NCBI GenBank assembly: GCA_002952755.1
Contig: CP025011.1
Location: forward strand, 690,001-722,000
Reading direction: 5' to 3'
Length of the DNA: 32,000 nucleotides
Source: Candidatus Saccharimonadota bacterium
Lineage (GTDB): Bacteria; Patescibacteriota; Saccharimonadia; Saccharimonadales; UBA4665
Shown here: positions 808 through 30,814 of the stretch, in pieces
How positions within the stretch are numbered: position 1 is the first letter of the stretch
Layout: each line of letters opens with the position of its first letter
Translations under genes and position numbers: made by a program
The notes under the pieces: generated by a model
What the model saw: the letters and a program-made list of their open reading frames with translations, nothing else
What the model was told of the DNA's origin: nothing
The model's database searches: none

Positions 808-1025
808 CGCTTTGCGAGATTATCAAAATCTTTCTGGTAATCGCTAAGGATTTTTTTAGCCGTGGCTAGGACCTGCTGGTCCTCGCTATTCTTATTATGA
901 AGAGGACGAACGATTACTTCAACTTCATCGCCGAAAGCGATGTTCTGTCTTTTAAGATCTTTAGCAGGGATGGTTACGCCGCCACTCGAACCTATTTTTA
1001 TAACTTTTTGTATACTTTGAATCAT
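804..1025 (-). CDS. AbrB/MazE/SpoVT-fold antitoxin partner of Doc
   Basis: 73 aa. The N-terminal VIKIGSSGGVTIPAKDLKRQNIAFGDEVEV is typical of a swapped-hairpin AbrB/SpoVT DNA-binding domain. It is translationally coupled to doc. Confidence 0.75.
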   Translation of the reverse strand: MIQSIQKVIKIGSSGGVTIPAKDLKRQNIAFGDEVEVIVRPLHNKNSEDQQVLATAKKILSDYQKDFDNLAKR

Positions 1026-1027
1026 AG

Positions 1028-1054
1028 ATATATTATAACAACGTTATAATATAT
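1028..1054. promoter_or_regulatory. Perfect 12-3-12 inverted repeat, a candidate TA operator, overlapping an extended -10 box
   Basis: The repeat reads ATATATTATAAC-aac-GTTATAATATAT. On the minus strand TGTTATAAT (1040->1032) lies exactly 6 nt upstream of the antitoxin ATG at 1025. No SD is present. Confidence 0.6.
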
Positions 1055-2616: not shown

Positions 2617-3498
2617 ATGAATATACATAGCGGTGAAAGATTGTATGGTGCAGTTGAAGCTGGAGGCACAACCTTTGTGGTGGCTGTCGGCACTAGCGAA
2701 GGTGAGATTCTTGAGCATTCAGAATTTGTCACGGGAAGCCCCGAGGCGACATATGACAAAGTCTGCGATTTCTTCGATGAGAATCCTGTATAAGCTCTCG
2801 GCGTTGCGCATTTTGGGCCCTTCGGTCTTGATCCCTCGTCACCCTTATACGGCCATGCGCTGGCAACCCCTAAACCTGACTGGCAACATGTTAATGTCGG
2901 AGGAATGCTAGAAGCTCGGCTGGGCAGACTACCTATTGCCTATGGCGGTGACGTAGATGCTGCATTATTAGGTGAGGTGGCTTACGGAGAGGCAAAAGAT
3001 CAAGAAGACTATGTGCTCATGAAGATTGGCACCGGCATTGGTGTAGCTGCTATGTCTGGGGGTCGTTTGGTTAGTAGCAGCAACCGGGGTACCCCTGAAA
3101 TGGGGCATTTAATAATCAAACGTGATGCCGACGATGCATTTACCGGCGCATGTCCAGCACATGGCGACTGCCTGGAGGGCCTTGCCAGCGGTGGGGCTCA
3201 TAAAAAGCGACAAGAACAGGGCGAAGATCTGGATTGGGATCGCCAGGCGAGATATATAGGTTTGGGGGTTCATAACGCTGTTTACTCGCACCGTCCCAGT
3301 GTAATGATGCTTGGTGGAGGTGTCATGGCACACGAGGGGCTTTTTGACGCAGTCCGCGACCAGGTTGTAAATTTGAATAAAGGTTACTTAGAATTGCCAG
3401 AGTTTTTCTTATCTAAAGATGGGGAGCGTATGGGGGTAAAAGGTGCGTTCCGTCTTGCGATGTCAGCAGTGGCTTTACGTGGCAATAATGCTCAATAA
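2617..3498 (+). pseudogene. ROK-family fructokinase/glucokinase (GmuE/YdhR/Mak-like) interrupted by one in-frame TAA at 2791-2793
   Basis: The ATG at 2617 opens a 58-codon ORF below the ORF-track size cutoff. It encodes MNIHSGERLYGAVEAGGTTFVVAVG..., carrying the sugar-kinase phosphate-1 motif. After the TAA the same frame continues with ALGVAHFGPFGLD...TPKPDW...DVDAALLGE...KIGTGIGVAA...PEMGHLII...CPAHGDCLEGLASG. That is the full ROK body including the Zn/Cys-His motif. Total length of 292 sense codons is normal for the family. Confidence 0.8.
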
Positions 3499-14334: not shown

Positions 14335-14886
14335 ATGAATCAGAAACTGAGCAAGGCTGATGAGCTGTTTTTTGTAGTTGATGAGAATGATCACCCTCGG
14401 GCATCTCTGCCTCGCAAGCTTGTACATGGACAAGGTGTTTGGCATAGGGTGTCCCACGTATGGATACAGAACGACAAAGGGCAGTTGCTCTGCCAGCAGC
14501 GTTCGCTAGACAAAGAATTGTTGCCGGGGTTTTGGGAATGTTTTTTCGGCGGACATATCCGGCCGAACGAAAGCTACGAACAGGCTGCTATCAGGGAGGC
14601 ATCCGAAGAGCTCGGTATTAATGTGGCTACCCGGGATTTACGGTTATGGAAAGTCTACAAGTTTTCTGACAACATGGGGTACAACAATGAGTTTATGGGT
14701 ATATTCATTATTGGCTGGAATGGCGCCATCAAAGATTTGACCTTTAATGATGGTGAGGTGGCCCAAGCAGCATGGAAAGACATTGCTGAAATTAAGCAAG
14801 CAATCCGTGAAAAAGGTGGTAGGAGCTGGACGAGCGTGGGCTACGAGTTACAGCTACTGGACGAACTTGAAGGCGAAAGGAACTAG
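14335..14886 (+). CDS. NUDIX hydrolase (Idi-like subfamily architecture)
   Basis: 183 aa with the Nudix box GGHIRPNESYEQAAIREASEELGI. It starts 3 nt after the cupredoxin stop. Confidence 0.8.
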   Translation: MNQKLSKADELFFVVDENDHPRASLPRKLVHGQGVWHRVSHVWIQNDKGQLLCQQRSLDKELLPGFWECFFGGHIRPNESYEQAAIREASEELGINVATRDLRLWKVYKFSDNMGYNNEFMGIFIIGWNGAIKDLTFNDGEVAQAAWKDIAEIKQAIREKGGRSWTSVGYELQLLDELEGERN

Positions 14887-14887
14887 C

Positions 14888-15370
14888 ATGAGCGATTATC
14901 ACGACAGACGAGCCAAAGAAATTCTGGGGAAGATTATTTACGCGACTGTTGCCACTGCCAGTAAAGCTGGCAAGCCGCATAATTCACCGGTTCGGTTTGA
15001 ATACGATGGAAACCTGAATATTTATTGGTTTTCTGATAAAGAGAACATTCATTCGCAAAATGTGCGAGAGAATGAAGATGTCTTTATTGTCATCTACGAC
15101 AGCACAGTACCAGAGGGTGAGGGCGAGGGTGTGTACTTTGAGGCCAAAGCATCCGAGGTGGCCGATCCTGAAGAAATCAACCGTGCGCGGCGCATCAAGA
15201 GAGGCGCTGACTTCCCCGGCGATGCCGACGACTTCTTAGGGAGCGCAATACGTAGGTGCTATAAAGCTGTGCCGCAGCGGGCGTGGATGAATGAGGCTCA
15301 AGTCGAAGACGGGAAGTTTATCCGGGATTTTCGGGTTGAGATTGCGCTAGACGTCTTGAAGTCCAGATAG
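14888..15370 (+). CDS. Pyridoxamine 5'-phosphate oxidase-like FMN-binding split-barrel protein
   Basis: 160 aa counted from the ATG at 14888, 1 nt after the NUDIX stop. The sequence RRAKEILGKIIYATVATASKAGKPHNSPVRFEYDGNLNIYWFS is typical of the PNPOx-like family. The longer ORF-track start at 14747 would overlap the NUDIX gene by 140 nt. Confidence 0.7.
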   Translation: MSDYHDRRAKEILGKIIYATVATASKAGKPHNSPVRFEYDGNLNIYWFSDKENIHSQNVRENEDVFIVIYDSTVPEGEGEGVYFEAKASEVADPEEINRARRIKRGADFPGDADDFLGSAIRRCYKAVPQRAWMNEAQVEDGKFIRDFRVEIALDVLKSR

Positions 15371-25711: not shown

Positions 25712-25735
25712 TTGGCGAGTAACCAAGGGAGTGTT

Positions 25736-26140
25736 ATGAGTAAGGGGACAAAGAAATTTGCAGTCGGCACGGTTGTTGCTGCGGCAGCAGGCTATGTTGC
25801 CGGTATGTTGACAGCTCCAAAGAGTGGTAAGGAAACGCGCGATGATATTAAGCGTGCGGCTGAGCGCACGTATGGGGCTGCCGAGAAAGAACTCAAGGCC
25901 CTCCATACTGAACTCAACAAATTGATGGAGCAAGGCCGCAGTAAGGCCAGCGAACTGAAGGGCACGGCCAAAGACAATCTCGATAAGGCCATAGAGTCCG
26001 CCAAGACGGCGAAAGAGAAAACACGCGATTTATTGAGTGCAGTGCACGAAGGCGACGCCGACGACAAAGACTTGAAGAAAGCTGTCGAAGAAGCGAATAA
26101 GGCAGTTGAACATCTGCGCAGTTTTCTAACTAAAACATAG
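25736..26140 (+). CDS. YtxH domain-containing protein
   Basis: 134 aa from the ATG at 25736, with SD AAGGGA upstream. The N-terminus FAVGTVVAAAAGYVAGMLTAPKSGKETRDDIK is the YtxH signature, followed by a long charged coiled region. Confidence 0.75.
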   Translation: MSKGTKKFAVGTVVAAAAGYVAGMLTAPKSGKETRDDIKRAAERTYGAAEKELKALHTELNKLMEQGRSKASELKGTAKDNLDKAIESAKTAKEKTRDLLSAVHEGDADDKDLKKAVEEANKAVEHLRSFLTKT

Positions 26141-26158
26141 TCTGCCTGTCAATATTGG

Positions 26159-26269
26159 TGTTAGATAATCACCCCCTCAGAAAAACAGAGTCAGGCGTAG
26201 TGCAGCCAGACCGACGTAAGTCGGCCTGCGCGTAACGCTCTGTTTTTCTGAGGGGGTGATTATCTAACA
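26159..26269. repeat. Giant hairpin element, copy 1: 32-bp perfect stem plus 47-nt conserved apical core
   Basis: Bases 26159-26190 are exactly complementary to 26238-26269. The core (26191-26237) contains CCGAC-GTAA-GTCGG. The core is 40/47 identical to that of the element at 30165-30269. Confidence 0.95.
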
Positions 26270-26375
26270 GGCGCCATTCCTCGGCAATGTTATAGAACTC
26301 AAGCTGTTTTCGCCCACTTGCCAATGCTATTATAAGAGTATTGAGACTTCGGGGTATGATCTGGCGATCAGTGGA

Positions 26376-26384
26376 TGCTACACA
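26376..26384 (+). promoter_or_regulatory. Variant extended -10-like box TGCTACACA upstream of dnaE
   Basis: It shares TGCTACA with the other boxes but ends in A rather than T. It lies 30 nt upstream of the ATG at 26415, with AAAGGG as a possible SD. Confidence 0.25.
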
Positions 26385-26414
26385 CGAGGCTAGATATCTA
26401 AAAGGGTAGTTGGT

Positions 26415-29400
26415 ATGGAAAGAATAAAAGAGAAGAAAACACACCCACAGACGCTCTCACCCAGCGATTATGTGCATTTGCACAACCATACTCAGTACAG
26501 TCTTTTGGATGGGCTGACAAAGGTAGGCGGCCTGGTACAATATGTAAAAGAGTCCGGTATGGTAGCCGTAGCCCAGACCGACCACGGCACACTTTCCGGC
26601 AACATCGAATTTTATAAAGAGGCCGTTGCTAATGGCGTAAAACCGCTGCTAGGGATGGAGGCGTATGTCGCTGCGCGGACCATTGCCGACAAAGAGCCTG
26701 GTAAAGACAAAGTATATTATCACCTGATTTTGATCGCCATGAATAACACTGGCTACCAAAATCTGATGCGCCTGAGCACCATTGCCAATCTAGAGGGTGT
26801 GTACTATAAACCCCGCATCGACCACATCTTGCTGGAGAAGTATAGCGAGGGCCTGATCGTCGTTAGTGGTTGTATCGGTGGCGAAATTGGCGATGCTGTT
26901 CGCCAGGGTCAGTATGATAAAGCAATCGAGACAGCCAAATGGTATAAAAAGGTATTTGGCGATCGCTACTATGTAGAGGTGCAAGATCACGGTCATCCCG
27001 ATCACCCCAGTAAGTGGGACGAGCAGGTCCAGGTGAATGAGCAATTGCTCAAACTGGCGAAAGAGCTGGATATCCCGCCAGTAGTTACTTGCGACGCGCA
27101 CTACCTCAGCCACGACGACCAAACTGCACATGAAATTCTGCTATGTGTGCAGACCGGCTCTTTCCTAAGCGACGAAAAGCGTATGTCGCTCGCTAATTTC
27201 GAATTACACGTCACCGACCCCAACGATATTATCAAAAGATGGAGCGACTACTGCCCTGAGGCGATTACGAATACTCGCGCGATCGCCGACCGCTGCAATG
27301 TGGAAATTGAACTGGGAAAGATCTTGATTCCTAAATTTCCGGTGCCTGCGGGCGAAGACGAAAAATCATATTTGGATAAGTTAGTTTTTGCGGGGCTCGC
27401 CGAACGCTACAATGGCATCGAGCGCGAAAAGGCCGAAGCAATGAGTATTCCGGAAGTAAAGGCCACGCTTAAGACCGAAGTGCTGGAGCGCGCTGAGTAC
27501 GAACTGAGCGTGATTGATGGCATGGGTTTTAACGGTTACATGCTGATTGTTCAGGACTTTATTAACTGGGGTAAAGACCAGGGAATTATCTTTGGCCCGG
27601 GGCGCGGTTCAGCCGCCGGCTCAATTATTGCCTTCGCGTTGCACATTACCGATCTTGATCCGCTGGCATACGGCCTGCTCTTTGAGCGCTTCCTAAACCC
27701 CGACCGTATCAGCATGCCCGATATTGACGTCGATATTCAGGACACCCGCCGCGATGAGGTAATTCAGTATTGTTCCGAGAAGTATGGCGCCGACCGCGTA
27801 TCAAACATCGTAACCTTTGGTAAGATGGCTGCCCGCGCGGCAGTGCGCGATGTTGCCCGTGTGCTGCAAGTGCCATACGCCGAAGCGGACCATCTGGCCA
27901 AGCTTATTCCCCAGCCAGTACAGGGCAGACACATTCCGCTCAAGGTGAGCATCGAAAAAGATCCGGACTTACGCCGGGAGTATGAGAACGACGAAACTGC
28001 CAAGCGGGTAATTGACTTAGCGATTGCGTTGGAAGGTACCATTCGTAGCCACGGTGTGCACGCTTGTGGTGTGGTGATTGCTCCGGCGGAGCTGGTGCAG
28101 TACGTGCCACTGGAAATGGCCCAAAAAGGAGTGGTTGCAACCCAGTTTTCTATGGGGCAGATCGAAGAACTTGGGCTACTTAAGATGGACTTCCTTGGCC
28201 TTTCAAACTTGACGATCATCAAAAACGCTATGCGCATCATCAAGAGAGTCCACGACATCGACATTGATTTAAATGCCATACCTCTTGACGATCCAGAAAC
28301 TTTTGCCCTGTTAGGCCGCGGCGATACAACCGGTGTATTCCAGTTTGAATCTTCCGGTATGAAGCGCTATTTGCGCGAACTGAAACCCACGGTATTTGAT
28401 GACGTGATCGCTATGGGTGCGCTCTATCGTCCGGGTCCGCTTTCAGCTGGCCTGACAGAGAGTTTTATTAAGCGCAAGAATAATCTGGAAGCCGTGGAGT
28501 ACGCACATCCGCTTATGGAGCCTGCCCTCGGGAGTACCTTTGGCGTGTTGGTATATCAGGAGCAGGTAATGCAGATCTCGCGCGATGTATGCGGTTTTAC
28601 CGGTGGTGAGGCCGACACGCTGCGTAAGGCTATCGGCAAGAAAAAGCTCGATGTTATGGAGAAAATGCAGGTTAAGTTCATCGACGGTGCAGTGGCGAAC
28701 GGCGTGCCAAAGCGAGTGATTGAGAAGTTCTGGAAGGATTTACTGGGGTTCGCCGACTACTGTTTCAACAAGTCACACTCAGCCTGCTATGGTATGACCT
28801 CGTACTGGACGGCATATCTGAAGGCGCACTATCCGTCAGCCTTTATGGCCGCGCTGATGACCAGCGATTTCGACGACACCGACCGCTTAAGTATCGAAAT
28901 ATCGGAATGTCAAAAGATGGGTATCAATGTGCTGCCACCCGACATCAATGAGTCGTTCCATGAGTTTGCTGTGGTGCCAGATAAAAATAATCCGGATAAC
29001 CGTAAGGCTGATATTCGATTTGGTATGGATGCCATCAAAAATGTCGGTACCGGGGCAGCAGATGAGATTATCCGGGCGCGTGATATCGACGGCGGCTTTA
29101 CGAGCCTGGAAGATTTCTTAGGCAAAGCCAATGTCCGCATTGCCAACCGCAAGGCGCTGGAAAGCCTGATTAAGGCCGGAGCATTCGACCGCTACGGCGA
29201 GCGCTCACAACTCTTGCATAACCTGGACGTTATTATCGCCTACGGAAATCGCTTGCAAAAAGAAGCGAGTAGTGGGCAGGTTGATCTGTTTGGTAGCGCC
29301 GACGAGTCGCTACAAATTGCCAAGCCGCAGCTACTGCTTGAGAAAGCTGCCACAGTATTTAACTCGCGCGAGCAGCTACTGTGGGAGCGGGAATTGCTTG

Positions 29401-30107
29401 GACTGTACCTAAGCCAGCATCCGCTGAGTATGTATGCCACTTATTTGGCTGAGCAAACACTGCCCTTAAACGAACTAAAACCCACACATGACGGTAAGGC
29501 GGTTACCATTGGTGGCGGCATCACTGATATGCGCGAGATCACCACTAAAAATGGTGCCAAGATGGCTTTCGTGAAGCTCGAAGATCAGTTTGGGGAGATC
29601 GAGCTCATCCTGTTCCCGAATGCGTACCAACAAACGGCCGGATTATGGGAGCGCGACCGAGTCATTTTATGTCGCGGTAAGGTTTCGGCCAAAGATCGCG
29701 AAGGTAATACTAGCGAAGAATTGAAGATCATGGTAGACGACGCTCGCGAGATCACAGCAGAGCAGGCGCAAGGCTACCAGGAAACGGGGAGGCGCATAAA
29801 AGTCCCGGGTGCTAAACGTTCCGTCGCCGCAGTAACAGCTACACGTAGCAGCGCAGTAAGTGCAAAGCCGATGCCAGTAACACCGCCCCGAGTATATATT
29901 CGCCTCCCCGATGGGAGTGACCAACAAACGCTTTTACATATTAAGCAGGCCCTAGACGATAATAAAGGTGACACTGAGGTCGTGCTGGTGCTCGGTGTTT
30001 CAGAGAGTAAACAAATTATTAAATTGCCCTCCAAAATCAATGCAGGGGAGCCAGTACTTGCCCGGCTGCGCGAAGTCGCTGGCGATACGAACATAAAGAT
30101 CCAATAA
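26415..30107 (+). CDS. dnaE: DNA polymerase III subunit alpha
   Basis: 1230 aa. The PHP domain carries VHLHNHTQYSLLDG. Core motifs are FGPGRGSAAGS and MPDIDVDI, with HhH and OB-fold regions. The C-terminal ~150 aa comprise a low-complexity linker and a small terminal domain. Confidence 0.95.
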   Translation: MERIKEKKTHPQTLSPSDYVHLHNHTQYSLLDGLTKVGGLVQYVKESGMVAVAQTDHGTLSGNIEFYKEAVANGVKPLLGMEAYVAARTIADKEPGKDKVYYHLILIAMNNTGYQNLMRLSTIANLEGVYYKPRIDHILLEKYSEGLIVVSGCIGGEIGDAVRQGQYDKAIETAKWYKKVFGDRYYVEVQDHGHPDHPSKWDEQVQVNEQLLKLAKELDIPPVVTCDAHYLSHDDQTAHEILLCVQTGSFLSDEKRMSLANFELHVTDPNDIIKRWSDYCPEAITNTRAIADRCNVEIELGKILIPKFPVPAGEDEKSYLDKLVFAGLAERYNGIEREKAEAMSIPEVKATLKTEVLERAEYELSVIDGMGFNGYMLIVQDFINWGKDQGIIFGPGRGSAAGSIIAFALHITDLDPLAYGLLFERFLNPDRISMPDIDVDIQDTRRDEVIQYCSEKYGADRVSNIVTFGKMAARAAVRDVARVLQVPYAEADHLAKLIPQPVQGRHIPLKVSIEKDPDLRREYENDETAKRVIDLAIALEGTIRSHGVHACGVVIAPAELVQYVPLEMAQKGVVATQFSMGQIEELGLLKMDFLGLSNLTIIKNAMRIIKRVHDIDIDLNAIPLDDPETFALLGRGDTTGVFQFESSGMKRYLRELKPTVFDDVIAMGALYRPGPLSAGLTESFIKRKNNLEAVEYAHPLMEPALGSTFGVLVYQEQVMQISRDVCGFTGGEADTLRKAIGKKKLDVMEKMQVKFIDGAVANGVPKRVIEKFWKDLLGFADYCFNKSHSACYGMTSYWTAYLKAHYPSAFMAALMTSDFDDTDRLSIEISECQKMGINVLPPDINESFHEFAVVPDKNNPDNRKADIRFGMDAIKNVGTGAADEIIRARDIDGGFTSLEDFLGKANVRIANRKALESLIKAGAFDRYGERSQLLHNLDVIIAYGNRLQKEASSGQVDLFGSADESLQIAKPQLLLEKAATVFNSREQLLWERELLGLYLSQHPLSMYATYLAEQTLPLNELKPTHDGKAVTIGGGITDMREITTKNGAKMAFVKLEDQFGEIELILFPNAYQQTAGLWERDRVILCRGKVSAKDREGNTSEELKIMVDDAREITAEQAQGYQETGRRIKVPGAKRSVAAVTATRSSAVSAKPMPVTPPRVYIRLPDGSDQQTLLHIKQALDDNKGDTEVVLVLGVSESKQIIKLPSKINAGEPVLARLREVAGDTNIKIQ

Positions 30108-30164
30108 TAGGGCGTGCCTGGATAAGAGCCTGTCTACCCGCTAGTTGCTTTTGTGATTAGTTCC

Positions 30165-30269
30165 GATCACCCTGCCTGCTGCCCCAAGGGGAGTCGCGCG
30201 TAGCGCAACCAGACCGACGTAAGTCGGCCTGTGTGAAACGCTCCCCTTGGGGCAGCAGGCAGGGTGATC
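30165..30269. repeat. Giant hairpin element, copy 2: 29-bp perfect stem plus 47-nt conserved apical core
   Basis: Bases 30165-30193 are exactly complementary to 30241-30269. The core (30194-30240) carries the same invariant 23-mer CCAGACCGACGTAAGTCGGCCTG as copy 1. The element lies between the convergent dnaE and NUDIX stops. Confidence 0.95.
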
Positions 30270-30274
30270 ATCTA

Positions 30275-30814
30275 TTAGTTGAGCAATCCGAGATGGTCGA
30301 GTGCCAGAAACGCACCGGCGGTATCAGTCAGCTGACCAGCACGTACTTGGGTGATGAAATCGGCGAGATCGACCAGCTCTACTTCACCAAATTCTGCATC
30401 ATCTAGCTGCGGTTCAGTAACTTTCTTGCAATTTTTTATGATGATGACACTACGATCCATTTGGGTATAGGCGTCACTCTCCCACGTGCCAATCCAATCT
30501 TCGACATCGCCGGCGTAGCCCGTTTCTTCGAGTAATTCGCGGATCGCAGCGTCGCGTGGCGGTTCATTGGCGTTTACCTTGCCGCCGGGTAATTCACGAA
30601 GAATAGTGTTTGGGCCGGGCCGGTACTGCGGGATAGTGATAACTTTGCTGTCGGTAGTAAGCGCGAACACGCAAGCGCCGGCGTCTTCAATGCGCAAGTA
30701 GTAGTCGGCGATCGTACCATTCGGCAAGCGGTAGTCGCGACGCTCAATGGTTTGAGAATATTTGTGGTAAGCGATTTCGCGTTTTAGCTCTTGCCATGTC
30801 TGCGTTTTGGCCAT
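30275..30814 (-). CDS. NUDIX hydrolase (ADP-ribose pyrophosphatase-like)
   Basis: 179 aa with the Nudix box GGKVNANEPPRDAAIRELLEETGY. A strong SD AAGGAGGG lies upstream. Confidence 0.85.
   Translation of the reverse strand: MAKTQTWQELKREIAYHKYSQTIERRDYRLPNGTIADYYLRIEDAGACVFALTTDSKVITIPQYRPGPNTILRELPGGKVNANEPPRDAAIRELLEETGYAGDVEDWIGTWESDAYTQMDRSVIIIKNCKKVTEPQLDDAEFGEVELVDLADFITQVRAGQLTDTAGAFLALDHLGLLN

What the first reader, a model, noticed from the sequence alone, without database searches (positions are those of the whole stretch)
26159..26269. Giant perfect hairpin (111 nt) with a conserved GNRA-capped apical core, copy 1
Seen directly in the sequence:
- A 32-bp stem with zero mismatches (26159-26190 pairs with 26238-26269) encloses a 47-nt core.
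- The centre of the core is CAG-a-CCGAC-GTAA-GTCGG-c-CTG, a short helix capped by a GNRA-type tetraloop.
- The core recurs 4 kb away (30194-30240) at 40/47 identity, including an invariant 23-mer CCAGACCGACGTAAGTCGGCCTG (26206-26228).
- The long stems of the two copies share only GAT..CACCC at the base and GAG at the top.

Two stems of unrelated sequence that are both perfectly paired are what a selected RNA or ssDNA structure would show. A mechanism that copies one arm from the other would give the same result. Neutral decay of a repeat would not.

The element starts 19 nt after the ytxH stop and is not followed by a U-tract, so it is not a canonical intrinsic terminator. A 30-bp duplex would be an RNase III substrate if transcribed. 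A weak extended -10-like TGTCAATAT (26147-26155) would place a transcription start at the hairpin base. That last point is speculative. I cannot match the element to any Rfam, REP, MITE or attC family from memory.
Basis: seen in the sequence. Interest (0 to 1): 0.72.

Follow-up and report, generated by a model that had tools for sequence, protein, structure and literature searches.

The report
Dispersed hairpin repeat family in Saccharimonadales
The 111-nt perfect hairpin is real and is one copy of a widespread, apparently undescribed family of intergenic hairpin elements in Saccharimonadales (TM7) bacteria, in which a conserved, structured ~65-nt top sits on a long stem whose sequence differs in every copy but always stays paired; what it does is still unknown.

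Summary
Arms 26159-26190 and 26238-26269 form 32 perfect base pairs around a 47-nt core. A second copy (30165-30269) has 29 perfect pairs, and the two copies flank dnaE. A third copy lies about 2 kb beyond the window end, on a Logan contig of the same organism.

The organism is a Saccharimonadales (Patescibacteria/CPR) bacterium. Rfam 15, phage and plasmid collections and viral contigs gave nothing.

Each element is one irregular hairpin:
- The arms are copy-specific, median 27 bp and 95.6% Watson-Crick.
- The internal loops are invariant (GGGUCnR/AC and AGUGCA/GWA).
- The apical helix covaries freely between genomes but is nearly identical within a genome.

The elements are always intergenic and abut gene ends. 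They occur in either orientation, without target-site duplications, an upstream promoter signal or an adjacent transposase.

My best reading, at moderate confidence, is a REP/REPIN-like interspersed palindromic element that folds as a single strand and is recognised through its apex. It probably doubles as a 3'-end hairpin for neighbouring genes; copy 1 has an inner stem followed by U5. Membership of REP/RAYT, MITE, attC and TIGR families was tested and is not supported. The GNRA cap and the proposed promoter are not family features.

The parts
26159..26190 (+). Copy 1, 5' arm (32 nt, copy-specific). It contains the A-tract 26181-26185 and the family-conserved inner stem.
   Evidence: 100% complementary to 26238-26269; sequence.
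26182..26246 (+). Copy 1, family-conserved segment of 65 nt: inner stem plus structured apex.
   Evidence: Covariance model R1 hit, 79.1 bits, E = 1.4e-22.
26195..26198 (+). Copy 1, helix 2, 5' strand GCGU. It pairs with ACGC at 26235-26238 and is invariant across the family.
   Evidence: RNAalifold consensus and pair counts. These bases were fixed by the search pattern, so the invariance is partly by construction.
26199..26204 (+). Copy 1, conserved internal-loop nucleotides AGUGCA, opposite GUA at 26232-26234.
   Evidence: Column counts. Partly fixed by the search pattern.
26205..26231 (+). Copy 1, helix 3 plus apical hairpin. The pairs are G26205-C26231, C26206-G26230 (C26229 bulged) and CAG 26207-26209 with CUG 26226-26228. 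A26210 lies opposite C26225. CCGAC 26211-26215 pairs with GUCGG 26220-26224, and the loop is GUAA 26216-26219.
   Evidence: The R-Y pair is AU 40, GC 17, GU 9, AC 1. The apical pairs covary fully. A is conserved in 65/68 members, opposite a variable base.
26238..26269 (+). Copy 1, 3' arm (32 nt). U/T-tract at 26243-26247, immediately after the inner stem CUCUG.
30165..30193 (+). Copy 2, 5' arm (29 nt).
30185..30249 (+). Copy 2, family-conserved segment.
   Evidence: R1 hit, 69.7 bits, E = 1.6e-19.
30241..30269 (+). Copy 2, 3' arm (29 nt). It ends 5 nt before the stop codon of the convergent NUDIX gene (30275-30814, minus strand).
25712..26140 (+). YtxH-like gene, whose 3' end abuts copy 1.
   Evidence: Orthologues in L004, L007, L008 and L011 carry PF12732.
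26415..30107 (+). dnaE (DNA polymerase III alpha), flanked by copies 1 and 2.

Best explanation
Copy 1 (26159-26269) and copy 2 (30165-30269) belong to a lineage-wide family of interspersed intergenic palindromic elements of about 95-115 nt in Saccharimonadales.

Shown:
- Each element folds, as a single strand, into one long irregular hairpin.
- The stem is copy-specific, 20-32 bp and almost perfectly Watson-Crick.
- It carries a conserved ~65-nt apex with two invariant asymmetric internal loops, a conserved unpaired A, a bulged C and a freely covarying apical helix.
- The elements fill short spacers next to gene ends, in either orientation.
- They have no target-site duplication, no promoter signal of their own and no linked transposase.
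- Within a genome the apex is nearly identical between copies, while the arms are close to unrelated.
- One orthologous pair swapped its whole apical helix while its arms stayed about 80% alike.

Inferred:
- The element behaves like a REP/REPIN-type non-autonomous repeat. The conserved apex would be the recognition module for a trans-acting factor that reads a folded single strand, most simply ssDNA, since orientation relative to transcription does not matter.
- Short-patch gene conversion between copies, anchored in the conserved loop segments, homogenises the apex within a genome.
- The arms drift freely. They stay paired through selection for hairpin formation, probably helped by hairpin-templated (intrastrand template-switch) correction.
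- When transcribed from either side, the long stem gives the neighbouring mRNAs a 3'-end hairpin. In copy 1 and about a third of members, the apex plus inner stem is followed by a U-run and looks like a bidirectional intrinsic terminator.

The factor, the strand that acts and the mode of spread are not known.
For: Family and structure:
- The core pattern hit 80 metagenome loci, which is the cap.
- Model R1 gives 75 hits of 53 bits or more in those loci. It finds exactly 2 in the window, 1 more on L002 and 1 in relative L005.
- The consensus fold has 14 of 20 covarying pairs in the core alignment.
- Over full-length elements, 32 of 39 pairs covary, 97.4% of cells are paired, and the covariation score is 0.90 against 0.18.

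Stems:
- Median length is 27 bp, and 1203 of 1258 pairs are Watson-Crick. G.T accounts for 28, A.C for 14 and other mismatches for 13.

Orientation and context:
- Relative to the abutting gene's 3' end, about 14 elements are sense and 16 antisense. Spacers are convergent in 12 cases, tandem in 15 and divergent in 8.
- Core-to-gene distances are mostly 25-60 nt, so the arms start at or within the stop-codon region.
- There is no promoter enrichment and no target-site duplication of 3 nt or more in 43 elements.
- Neighbouring genes are housekeeping genes, not transposases.

Concerted apex, drifting arms:
- Within a sample, arm identity is 0.37-0.46 and apex identity 0.83-0.89.
- For window copies 1 and 2, arm identity is 0.21 and apex identity 1.00.
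- In the orthologous pair L075/L077 the flanks are 81-85% identical. The arms show compensated double changes (ATTGC/GCAAT versus ATTAG/CTAAT), and the apical helix is completely replaced.

Turnover and persistence:
- R1 finds no element in relatives L003, L004, L007, L008 and L011, including around dnaE. L004 has a canonical terminator in the ytxH-dnaE spacer instead.
- The spacer downstream of dnaE is occupied in the distant genome L027.

Terminator-like subset:
- Copy 1 has an inner stem followed by U5.
- 23 of 65 members have a run of four or more T within 14 nt after the core.
Against: - No trans-acting enzyme was identified.
- RAYT genes are common in Saccharimonadales. The three RAYT loci examined carry unrelated short palindromes and no R1 hit.
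- The architecture is the reverse of a REPIN or MITE: the apex is conserved and the ends are variable.
- Copy number looks modest.
- Within-genome arm divergence is near saturation. The copies are therefore old, which fits a host-maintained functional element as well as a selfish repeat.
- Weak strand asymmetry would also fit an RNA. G.U outnumbers A.C 9 to 1 at one core pair and 28 to 14 in the arms, and the 5' arm is 58% A+C.
- No transcript data exist, so the terminator or stabiliser role is inferred from position and sequence only.
Confidence: 0.4

Rival explanations
1. It is a multi-copy structured non-coding RNA. The conserved ~55-65-nt apex would be a functional small RNA or a protein-binding RNA module. 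The long copy-specific stem would serve only as a processing handle, for example for RNase III cleavage of the 25-32-bp duplex. This would resemble the flanking stems of rRNA precursors or the stem-loop units of TIGR arrays.
For: - Internal-loop nucleotides are conserved and the helices covary.
- G.U is tolerated at the R-Y pair, 9 G.U against 1 A.C.
- In the arms G.T outnumbers A.C 28 to 14.
- There is a precedent in CPR bacteria for variable but consistently palindromic stems around conserved motifs, processed into single stem-loop RNAs (PMC12045711).
- A 29-32-bp perfect duplex is a textbook RNase III substrate (established knowledge).
Against: - Orientation relative to neighbouring genes is random. 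No sigma-70-like promoter precedes the element in either orientation. Half the copies would therefore be transcribed as the wrong strand.
- The arm helices contain far less G.U (2.2%) than is usual for RNA-selected helices, and as many non-wobble mismatches.
- The apical helix is genome-specific, so it cannot be a conserved guide.
- No Rfam family matches.
Confidence: 0.25
2. It is only an unusual transcription terminator or mRNA 3'-end stabiliser. The hairpin exists because each gene end needs one. The shared core would reflect common descent of terminators, not a separate function.
For: - The elements abut stop codons and often fill the whole spacer between convergent genes, 12 of 35 classified spacers.
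- Relative L004 has a canonical terminator at the position of copy 1.
- Copy 1 has a GC-rich apex, then CUCUG, then U5, with a matching A5 upstream.
- 23 of 65 members have a run of four or more T just after the core.
Against: - About two thirds of members, including copy 2, lack a U-run.
- Eight elements were called in divergent, promoter-side spacers, although the ORF calls are crude.
- A terminator needs no invariant asymmetric internal loops conserved across genera, and no 25-32 bp of extra perfect stem beyond the U-tract.
- Canonical short terminators exist in the same lineage, so there is no lineage-wide need for this structure.
Confidence: 0.12
3. It is a folded single-strand recombination site, attC-like or IS200/IS605-end-like. 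A tyrosine recombinase or HUH enzyme would use it to move flanked genes such as dnaE as cassettes.
For: - Two copies in the same orientation bracket dnaE.
- The structure is conserved while the stem sequence varies, with extrahelical or mismatched bases (conserved A, bulged C), as in attC sites.
Against: - There is no integrase, recombinase or HUH gene in the window or next to 73 elements.
- The elements are solitary and in both orientations, not in arrays.
- The conserved part is the apex, not the base, and no R'/R'' (GTTRRRY) boxes are present.
- dnaE synteny is ordinary in relatives without the element.
Confidence: 0.05
4. The arms are made at insertion. A mobile core of about 65 nt integrates, and its base-paired 3' end primes snap-back copying of adjacent sequence. 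This would create a perfect inverted duplication of local DNA.
For: - The arms are near-random between copies even within one genome, while the apex is identical.
- The arms of copies 1 and 2 are perfect (61 of 61 pairs).
- The inner arm of copy 1, CAGAAAAACAG, resembles the A-tract CAGAAAACAG of the terminator at the same site in L004.
Against: - The arms carry family-wide features that local DNA would not have. These are a 58% A+C bias in the 5' arm, a G[C/G] start, a narrow length range and slightly raised within-sample identity of 0.42 against 0.29.
- The orthologous arms of L075 and L077 are inherited, not re-made.
- No empty-site comparison is available.
Confidence: 0.08

Closest known systems
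REP / REPIN elements mobilised by RAYT (Y1/HUH) transposases
   Same: - Both are short, interspersed, extragenic palindromic repeats lying mostly downstream of genes and between convergent or tandem ORFs, in either orientation.
- Both fold into hairpins of about 100 nt in ssDNA or RNA.
- Sequence types are genome-specific, and the associated enzyme is usually single-copy and unlinked (PMC3116915, PMC3733652).
- The core contains GTAG a few nucleotides 5' of an imperfect palindrome.
- RAYT genes are common in Saccharimonadales.
   Different: - A REPIN is two inverted, conserved REPs with a variable middle. Here the middle is conserved and asymmetric, and the arms are variable.
- GTAG is half inside a helix, not an unpaired end tag.
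- The RAYT loci examined are flanked by unrelated 20-nt palindromes and have no R1 hits.
- Copy number appears much lower than for classical REPs.
Correia/NEMIS, ERIC, RPE (Rickettsia palindromic elements) and other bacterial MITE-like palindromic repeats
   Same: - All are intergenic hairpin-forming repeats of 100-150 nt in small or host-associated genomes.
- They are co-transcribed with neighbouring genes, and their stems are RNase III/E substrates or terminators (established knowledge).
- They persist at orthologous sites.
   Different: - MITEs have conserved terminal inverted repeats and target-site duplications. Here the termini are the least conserved part, and no duplication of 3 nt or more was found in 43 elements.
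- No sequence similarity was found in the phage or plasmid collections or in Rfam.
Integron attC sites
   Same: Both are single-strand-folded hairpins in which structure is conserved while most of the stem sequence is free. Both have extrahelical or mismatched bases as likely recognition marks.
   Different: - attC sites conserve the base (R/L boxes) and vary at the apex. They occur in same-orientation arrays next to intI.
- These elements are solitary, occur in both orientations, conserve the apex, lack a GTTRRRY box and have no integrase nearby.
TIGR-Tas stem-loop arrays (PMC12045711)
   Same: Both are found in CPR/Patescibacteria. In both, each unit has a variable but consistently palindromic stem enclosing conserved motifs. 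TIGR units are processed into single stem-loop RNAs.
   Different: - TIGR units are tandem arrays next to a tas gene. Their loops carry box C/D motifs and two unpaired spacers.
- Here the copies are dispersed singletons with no box C (RUGAUGA) or box D (CUGA). The variable central part is a base-paired helix, and no Nop-domain gene is nearby.
Bidirectional intrinsic terminators (A-tract, hairpin, U-tract)
   Same: Copy 1 and about 35% of members have an A-run, a GC-rich structured hairpin and a U-run, and they sit at gene ends.
   Different: - The hairpin is 50-65 nt with invariant internal loops, far larger than the usual 5-15 bp.
- A further 15-25 bp of perfect stem lies outside the A/U runs.
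- Most members have no U-run.

Membership tests
Any Rfam 15 RNA family | A covariance-model hit at or near the family's gathering score | tested here: not met
   - The whole window at gathering thresholds gave 0 hits.
- The region 25900-30600 at E up to 10 gave only three miRNA-precursor models at 18-28 bits, against gathering scores of 58-90.
- Twenty further family members at E up to 1 gave nothing on the element.
REP / REPIN (RAYT-associated) | An unpaired GTAG (or CGTC) tag at one end of a 20-40-nt imperfect palindrome | tested here: inconclusive
   GCGUAGUGCA lies 5' of the core hairpin. In the consensus fold, GU is paired and AG is in the internal loop, 5 nt from the next helix. The resemblance may be fortuitous.
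REP / REPIN (RAYT-associated) | A REPIN consists of two inverted copies of the conserved REP separated by a less conserved spacer | tested here: not met
   The conserved part is a single asymmetric apex. The two arms are the least conserved part, with identity 0.21-0.46 even within a genome.
REP / REPIN (RAYT-associated) | A cognate RAYT gene flanked by the same repeats | tested here: not met
   - There is no Y1_Tnp homologue within any of the 80 element loci or the window (tblastn; Pfam).
- RAYT loci L007, L093 and L094 have no R1 hit and carry other palindromes.
- Whole genomes could not be scanned.
MITE (DDE-transposase-derived) | Conserved terminal inverted repeats shared by copies | tested here: not met
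   The outer arms are at near-random identity between copies. Only a weak G[C/G] preference is seen at the base.
MITE (DDE-transposase-derived) | A target-site duplication flanking the element | tested here: not met
   Direct repeats at the hairpin borders: 3 of 43 for k = 2 (expected 2.7) and 0 of 43 for k = 3-5. The borders were defined by ungapped pairing, so small errors are possible.
Integron attC | Conserved R''/L'' and L'/R' boxes (RYYYAAC / GTTRRRY) at the base, same-orientation arrays and an adjacent intI | tested here: not met
   There is no such motif at the stem bases. Copies are solitary and occur in both orientations. No integrase is present in the window.
TIGR-Tas stem-loop array | Tandem units with box C/D motifs, dual unpaired spacers and an adjacent Tas (Nop-domain) gene | tested here: not met
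   Loci carry one copy each. The core has no RUGAUGA or CUGA, and its variable part is a helix. No such neighbouring gene was found. The definition is taken from PMC12045711.
Canonical intrinsic terminator | A short GC-rich hairpin followed immediately by a U-run, downstream of a gene in the sense direction | tested here: inconclusive
   The consensus scan finds none at the elements, because the stem and loop exceed its limits. By eye, copy 1 has apex, then CUCUG, then U5. Of 65 members, 23 have a run of four or more T within 14 nt, and copy 2 has none. Termination itself cannot be tested here.
Self-contained sRNA gene | Its own promoter at a fixed distance, and one transcribed strand | tested here: not met
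   Sigma-70-like matches upstream are 2/42 (plus orientation) and 0/42 (minus orientation), against a 2% background. The promoter consensus of this phylum is assumed to be sigma-70-like.

The most novel reading that the evidence does not exclude
The element could be a new class of structured nucleic-acid module specific to CPR/Saccharimonadia. The invariant asymmetric loops of the apex would bind a still unidentified protein. One possibility is a dispersed, RNase III-released small RNA family. Another is a new kind of mobile or convertible 'apex cassette' that moves between pre-existing hairpins, with the arms regenerated or corrected by hairpin-templated synthesis. Either would be a mechanism with no described counterpart among REP, MITE, attC or guide-RNA systems.
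Probability: 0.22. Interest if true: 0.85.

Novelty: new variant of a known kind. Interest (0 to 1): 0.62.

Why it matters
Saccharimonadia and other CPR bacteria have tiny genomes with very little non-coding DNA. A ~110-nt element kept in many intergenic spacers is therefore unlikely to be neutral filler, particularly one with invariant loop nucleotides across genera and a stem that stays perfectly paired while its sequence turns over completely.

If it is a REP-like repeat, it would extend that biology to the candidate phyla radiation with an inverted architecture: conserved apex and free arms. It would also give a clean natural system for studying how long palindromes are kept perfect. If it is an RNA or a protein-binding module, it is a new conserved motif with more than 70 examples and strong covariation, ready for Rfam and for pull-down experiments.

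On the practical side, the elements break short-read assemblies. The Logan contig L002 starts inside the 3' arm of copy 1 and ends inside the third copy. The elements could also serve as lineage markers.

Tried and rejected
- **Exact 20-mer of the apical hairpin in GTDB genome representatives.** There was one hit, inside a coding region with no hairpin, so it is chance. This used the only genome-contig scan, so the taxonomic range could not be read from named genomes.
- **The same 20-mer in metagenomes.** No hits, because the apical helix is genome-specific.
- **Exact-protein look-up of the YtxH ORF from its TTG start.** Not on record.
- **Rfam.** Only sub-threshold miRNA-precursor models, which reflect a generic long hairpin.
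- **Seven of the 80 pattern hits** (L014, L021, L035, L051, L053, L079, L092) lack stems. They share GTCCTGCGTAGCGCAGCCGCTG-type sequence and are unrelated.
- **L050** carries two inverted copies only because the whole contig is a fold-back chimera.
- **Arms as phage-derived spacers.** 19-mers from the arms of copies 1 and 2 are absent from viral contigs.
- **The element in phages or plasmids.** None.
- **Resemblance of CGTAGTAGCA at the L007 RAYT start to the core motif.** Not seen at other RAYT loci, so treated as coincidence.
- **Short matches recalled from memory.** I noted resemblances to 5S rRNA (GUAGCGC, GUGAAACGC), SRP RNA (GGUCAGG), group II intron domain V, the K-turn and the loop E/sarcin-ricin motif. 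None fits in register and Rfam gives no support.
- **Wobble counts split by orientation**. Sense elements gave G.T 4, A.C 0 and antisense elements gave 7 and 7. The numbers are too small to decide which strand folds.
- **Choice of folding strand.** The plus strand is favoured at the R-Y pair (66 against 58 canonical). The conserved A opposite C would be a U.G pair on the minus strand (7 against 53). This is unresolved.
Full report
**1. The observation**

The sequence is as described. The repeat finder reports arms 26159-26190 and 26238-26269 (32 nt, 100% complementary, 47 nt apart). It reports a second pair at 30165-30193 and 30241-30269 (29 nt, 100%, 47 nt apart). No other inverted repeat in the 32-kb window has arms above 16 nt.

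- The 23-mer CCAGACCGACGTAAGTCGGCCTG occurs only at 26206 and 30209, and never in 100 shuffles even with 3 mismatches.
- The cores differ at 7 of 47 positions.
- Both regions fold far better than shuffles, with z = -12.3 and -13.7.
- Copy 2 is identical in an independent Logan assembly, L002. That contig starts inside the 3' arm of copy 1. The hairpins are therefore real, and they break de Bruijn assemblies.

**2. Where it sits**

The window is ordinary housekeeping DNA. It encodes ABC transporters, TetR, thioredoxin reductase, UvrB, GatCAB, a sugar-nucleotidyl transferase, YtxH, DnaE, NUDIX and a CAP-domain protein, with no transposase or recombinase.

- Copy 1 lies between the ytxH-like gene (stop at 26140) and dnaE (start at 26415).
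- Copy 2 lies between the convergent dnaE (stop at 30107) and NUDIX (stop codon at 30275-30277) genes.
- DnaE homologues identify the organism as a Saccharimonadales bacterium (Patescibacteria/CPR). The exact protein is on record with a 1.45-Mb contig.
- A third copy, in reverse orientation and cut off by the contig end, lies after the T2SSE gene on L002. That is about 2.2 kb beyond the window end.

**3. It is a family**

Relative L005 (DnaE 82% identical) has a homologous element at a different site. It is in reverse orientation, with a different but still paired apical helix.

From four copies I derived the pattern GCGTTWC-N15-30-GGYTGCRCTACGCNNGAC. It matched 80 JGI metagenome loci, which is the cap. 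Seven of these are unrelated stemless hits, and about 73 are elements.

A covariance model (R1, built from 68 unique cores) scores all of them at 53-88 bits. It finds only the known copies in the window and L002. It finds none in about 24 kb around dnaE in relatives L003, L004, L007, L008 and L011.

Rfam 15 has nothing, either for the window or for 20 other members. Viral contigs, phage records and plasmid records have nothing either. Literature searches found no description.

**4. Anatomy**

RNAalifold and explicit pair counts give one irregular hairpin. From the base to the tip it consists of:

- An outer stem, copy-specific, median 27 bp and range 14-37 bp.
- About 7 conserved inner-stem pairs, AAGNAGG / (A)CUNCUU, with A on the 5' side in about 50 of 68 members.
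- A conserved G.A mismatch. The window copies have A-U here instead.
- An asymmetric internal loop, GGGUCnR opposite AC.
- Helix GCGU:ACGC.
- An asymmetric internal loop, AGUGCA opposite GWA.
- A helix that starts with an R-Y pair (AU 40, GC 17, GU 9, AC 1) and contains a bulged C.
- A conserved A (65 of 68) opposite a variable base.
- A 5-8-bp apical helix showing every pair type.
- A loop of 3-10 nt. Only 11 of 68 loops are strict GNRA.

Over 34 full-length members, 32 of 39 pairs show changes on both sides. The covariation score is 0.90, against 0.18 for shuffles and 0.10-0.15 for slid partners.

Two caveats apply. The bases fixed by my search pattern are invariant by construction. The 34 sequences were also chosen for long stems, so only the covariation is unbiased, not the percentage paired.

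**5. The arms**

In 54 unique elements, 1203 of 1258 arm pairs are Watson-Crick (95.6%). G.T accounts for 28, A.C for 14 and other mismatches for 13. This is cleaner than RNA-selected helices usually are. The 2:1 excess of G.T over A.C is only weak evidence for folding of the strand I call plus.

- The 5' arm is 58% A+C and the 3' arm is 59% G+T.
- The stem base tends to start G[C/G], and there are no target-site duplications.
- Outer-arm identity between copies is 0.37-0.46 within one metagenome sample and 0.29 between samples. It is 0.21 between window copies 1 and 2.
- The apex is 0.83-0.89 identical within a sample and 100% identical between copies 1 and 2.

**6. Evolutionary behaviour**

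Orthologous pairs were found by comparing flanks.

- **L075/L077.** The flanks are 81-85% identical and the arms about 80% alike. Their differences are mirrored on both arms (ATTGC/GCAAT versus ATTAG/CTAAT). The conserved loops are identical, but the whole apical helix differs (AUCCGCC-UUU-GGCGGAC versus AGCAACC-GACC-GGAUUGC). Each version resembles subtypes seen in other genomes. That points to replacement by conversion rather than point mutation.
- **L027.** This locus has an element in the spacer directly downstream of dnaE. Its DnaE C-terminus is 61% identical to the window's, and its arms are unrelated to those of copy 2. The site is either anciently occupied or repeatedly used.
- **L004.** This relative has a canonical intrinsic terminator where copy 1 sits.
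- **L005.** This relative has a canonical terminator downstream of dnaE, plus a degenerate hairpin with a different core.

**7. Context statistics**

I used crude but uniform ORF calls.

- Spacers are convergent in 12 cases, tandem in 15 (4 sense, 11 antisense) and divergent in 8.
- Counting every element with one identifiable abutting gene end gives about 14 sense and 16 antisense. At least one 'divergent' call, L005, is wrong by the supplied annotation.
- The core usually lies 25-60 nt from a gene end, so the arms begin at or in the stop-codon region.
- The neighbours are housekeeping genes, with some recurrence (T2SSE x4, NUDIX x4, RimK x3, NusA x2). This suggests positional conservation.
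- No Y1 transposase homologue lies in any element locus.
- No sigma-70-like promoter is enriched upstream in either orientation.

**8. What it most likely is**

Four points argue against a sense-strand RNA gene or a simple cis-acting mRNA element. Orientation is irrelevant, there is no promoter, the stems are unusually clean, and the apex is homogenised within a genome. The covariation and conserved unpaired bases, on the other hand, require folding of a single strand.

The simplest reconciliation is a REP/REPIN-like interspersed element that is read as a folded single strand, probably DNA, through its apex. Homology-limited gene conversion would homogenise the apex. The arms would be held complementary by selection for hairpin formation, and plausibly by intrastrand template-switch correction, which is a known mutational mechanism at quasi-palindromes (established knowledge; inferred here).

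Because the element is often the only sequence between genes, it must also be the 3'-end structure of those transcripts. Copy 1 and about 35% of members have an apex, a short stem and a U-run, mirrored by an A-run. That is the form of a bidirectional intrinsic terminator.

I put this composite explanation at 0.4. The processed-RNA rival stands at 0.25, helped by the CPR precedent of TIGR stem-loop units. 'Only a terminator' is at 0.12, snap-back arm synthesis at 0.08 and a recombination site at 0.05.

**9. Membership tests**

| Family | Result |
|---|---|
| REP/REPIN | GTAG is present but half-paired. The doublet architecture is not met. Cognate RAYT adjacency is not met in the loci available, although RAYTs abound in the order. 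|
| MITE | No conserved termini and no target-site duplication. |
| attC | The wrong part is conserved, and there are no arrays and no integrase. |
| TIGR | Not tandem, no box C/D motifs, no Tas gene. |
| Rfam | No family matches. |

The element works like a REP-type repeat, but it is not a demonstrated member of any named family.

**10. Verdict**

This is a real, conserved and apparently undescribed element family with more than 70 examples and strong structural covariation. Its function is unknown.

I rate its novelty as a new variant of a known kind, namely interspersed palindromic repeats. There is a 0.22 chance that it represents something mechanistically new. Interest is 0.62.

Noticed in passing
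L002:7971-8030 (same organism; about window coordinate 34.2 kb, beyond the window end): A third copy of the element, in reverse orientation, lies after the T2SSE gene. Its apical helix is degenerate (CCGACCUUUGGCCGACC). The Logan contig ends inside it, and the same contig starts inside the 3' arm of copy 1. The hairpins therefore break short-read assemblies.
   Followed up: partly
L007:9107-9900 (relative, DnaE 82% identical); also L094:9966-10653: A RAYT-type Y1 transposase gene (PF01797) sits between ytxH and dnaE, exactly where copy 1 lies in the window. It is flanked by unrelated short palindromes (TTTCCAAGGGCACTCCTTGGAAA; in L094, AATTCCAGGTACAGTACCTGGA). A search with this protein returned 3388 homologues at E up to 1e-5; among the 120 best, the few that carry an organism name are Saccharimonadales or Saccharimonadaceae.
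   Followed up: partly
L008:15088-15203 and L005:13790-13882: These are other giant intergenic hairpins with different cores. L008 has 24 perfect pairs around a 68-nt core with a nested hairpin, and its 5' arm is again C-rich. L005 has a degenerate hairpin just after the dnaE terminator, and its stem base GCGGCCAC matches that of the L005 family member. These genomes may hold several hairpin-repeat families built on the same plan.
   Followed up: no
L020:605-670 (+) and 976-1042 (-): Two family members in opposite orientation bracket a 65-codon ORF (L020:762-959, MAYKHTNSKGVTYYLNSK...). The first has a variant core, GCGCAAGUGCA instead of GCGUAGUGCA.
   Followed up: no
window 2633-2911 and 2905-3498: A ROK-family gene appears split. 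The 197-aa ORF matches only positions 94-292 of the 294-position Pfam ROK profile, and a 92-aa ORF ends just upstream and overlaps it. This may be a frameshift, a pseudogene or a sequencing error.
   Followed up: no
window 14335-14886 and 14747-15370: The NUDIX and PNPOx-like ORFs overlap by 140 nt as listed. The start of the second ORF is probably further downstream.
   Followed up: no
L050 (whole 4243-nt contig): The metagenome contig is a near-perfect fold-back: its left half is the reverse complement of its right half. It is an assembly or amplification chimera, which falsely suggested a gene flanked by two inverted elements.
   Followed up: yes
L014, L051, L053, L092 (pattern matches): A recurring stemless sequence, GTCCTGCGTAGCGCAGCCGCTGACC...GAAACGC, matched the search pattern. 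Its flanks are conserved (…ATCCTGCAGCGGTTCGCC…). It looks like a conserved coding segment of an unrelated organism, not the element.
   Followed up: no
L004:9835-9866 versus window 26178-26250: The canonical ytxH terminator of L004 (AGAAAACAG-CGCC-CACCA-GGCG-CTGTTTTTAT) shares its A-tract and T-tract (CAGAAAACAG / CTGTTTTT) with the inner arms of copy 1 (CAGAAAAACAG / CTGTTTTTCTG). This could be a remnant of an ancestral terminator into which the apex was placed, or it could be coincidence.
   Followed up: partly
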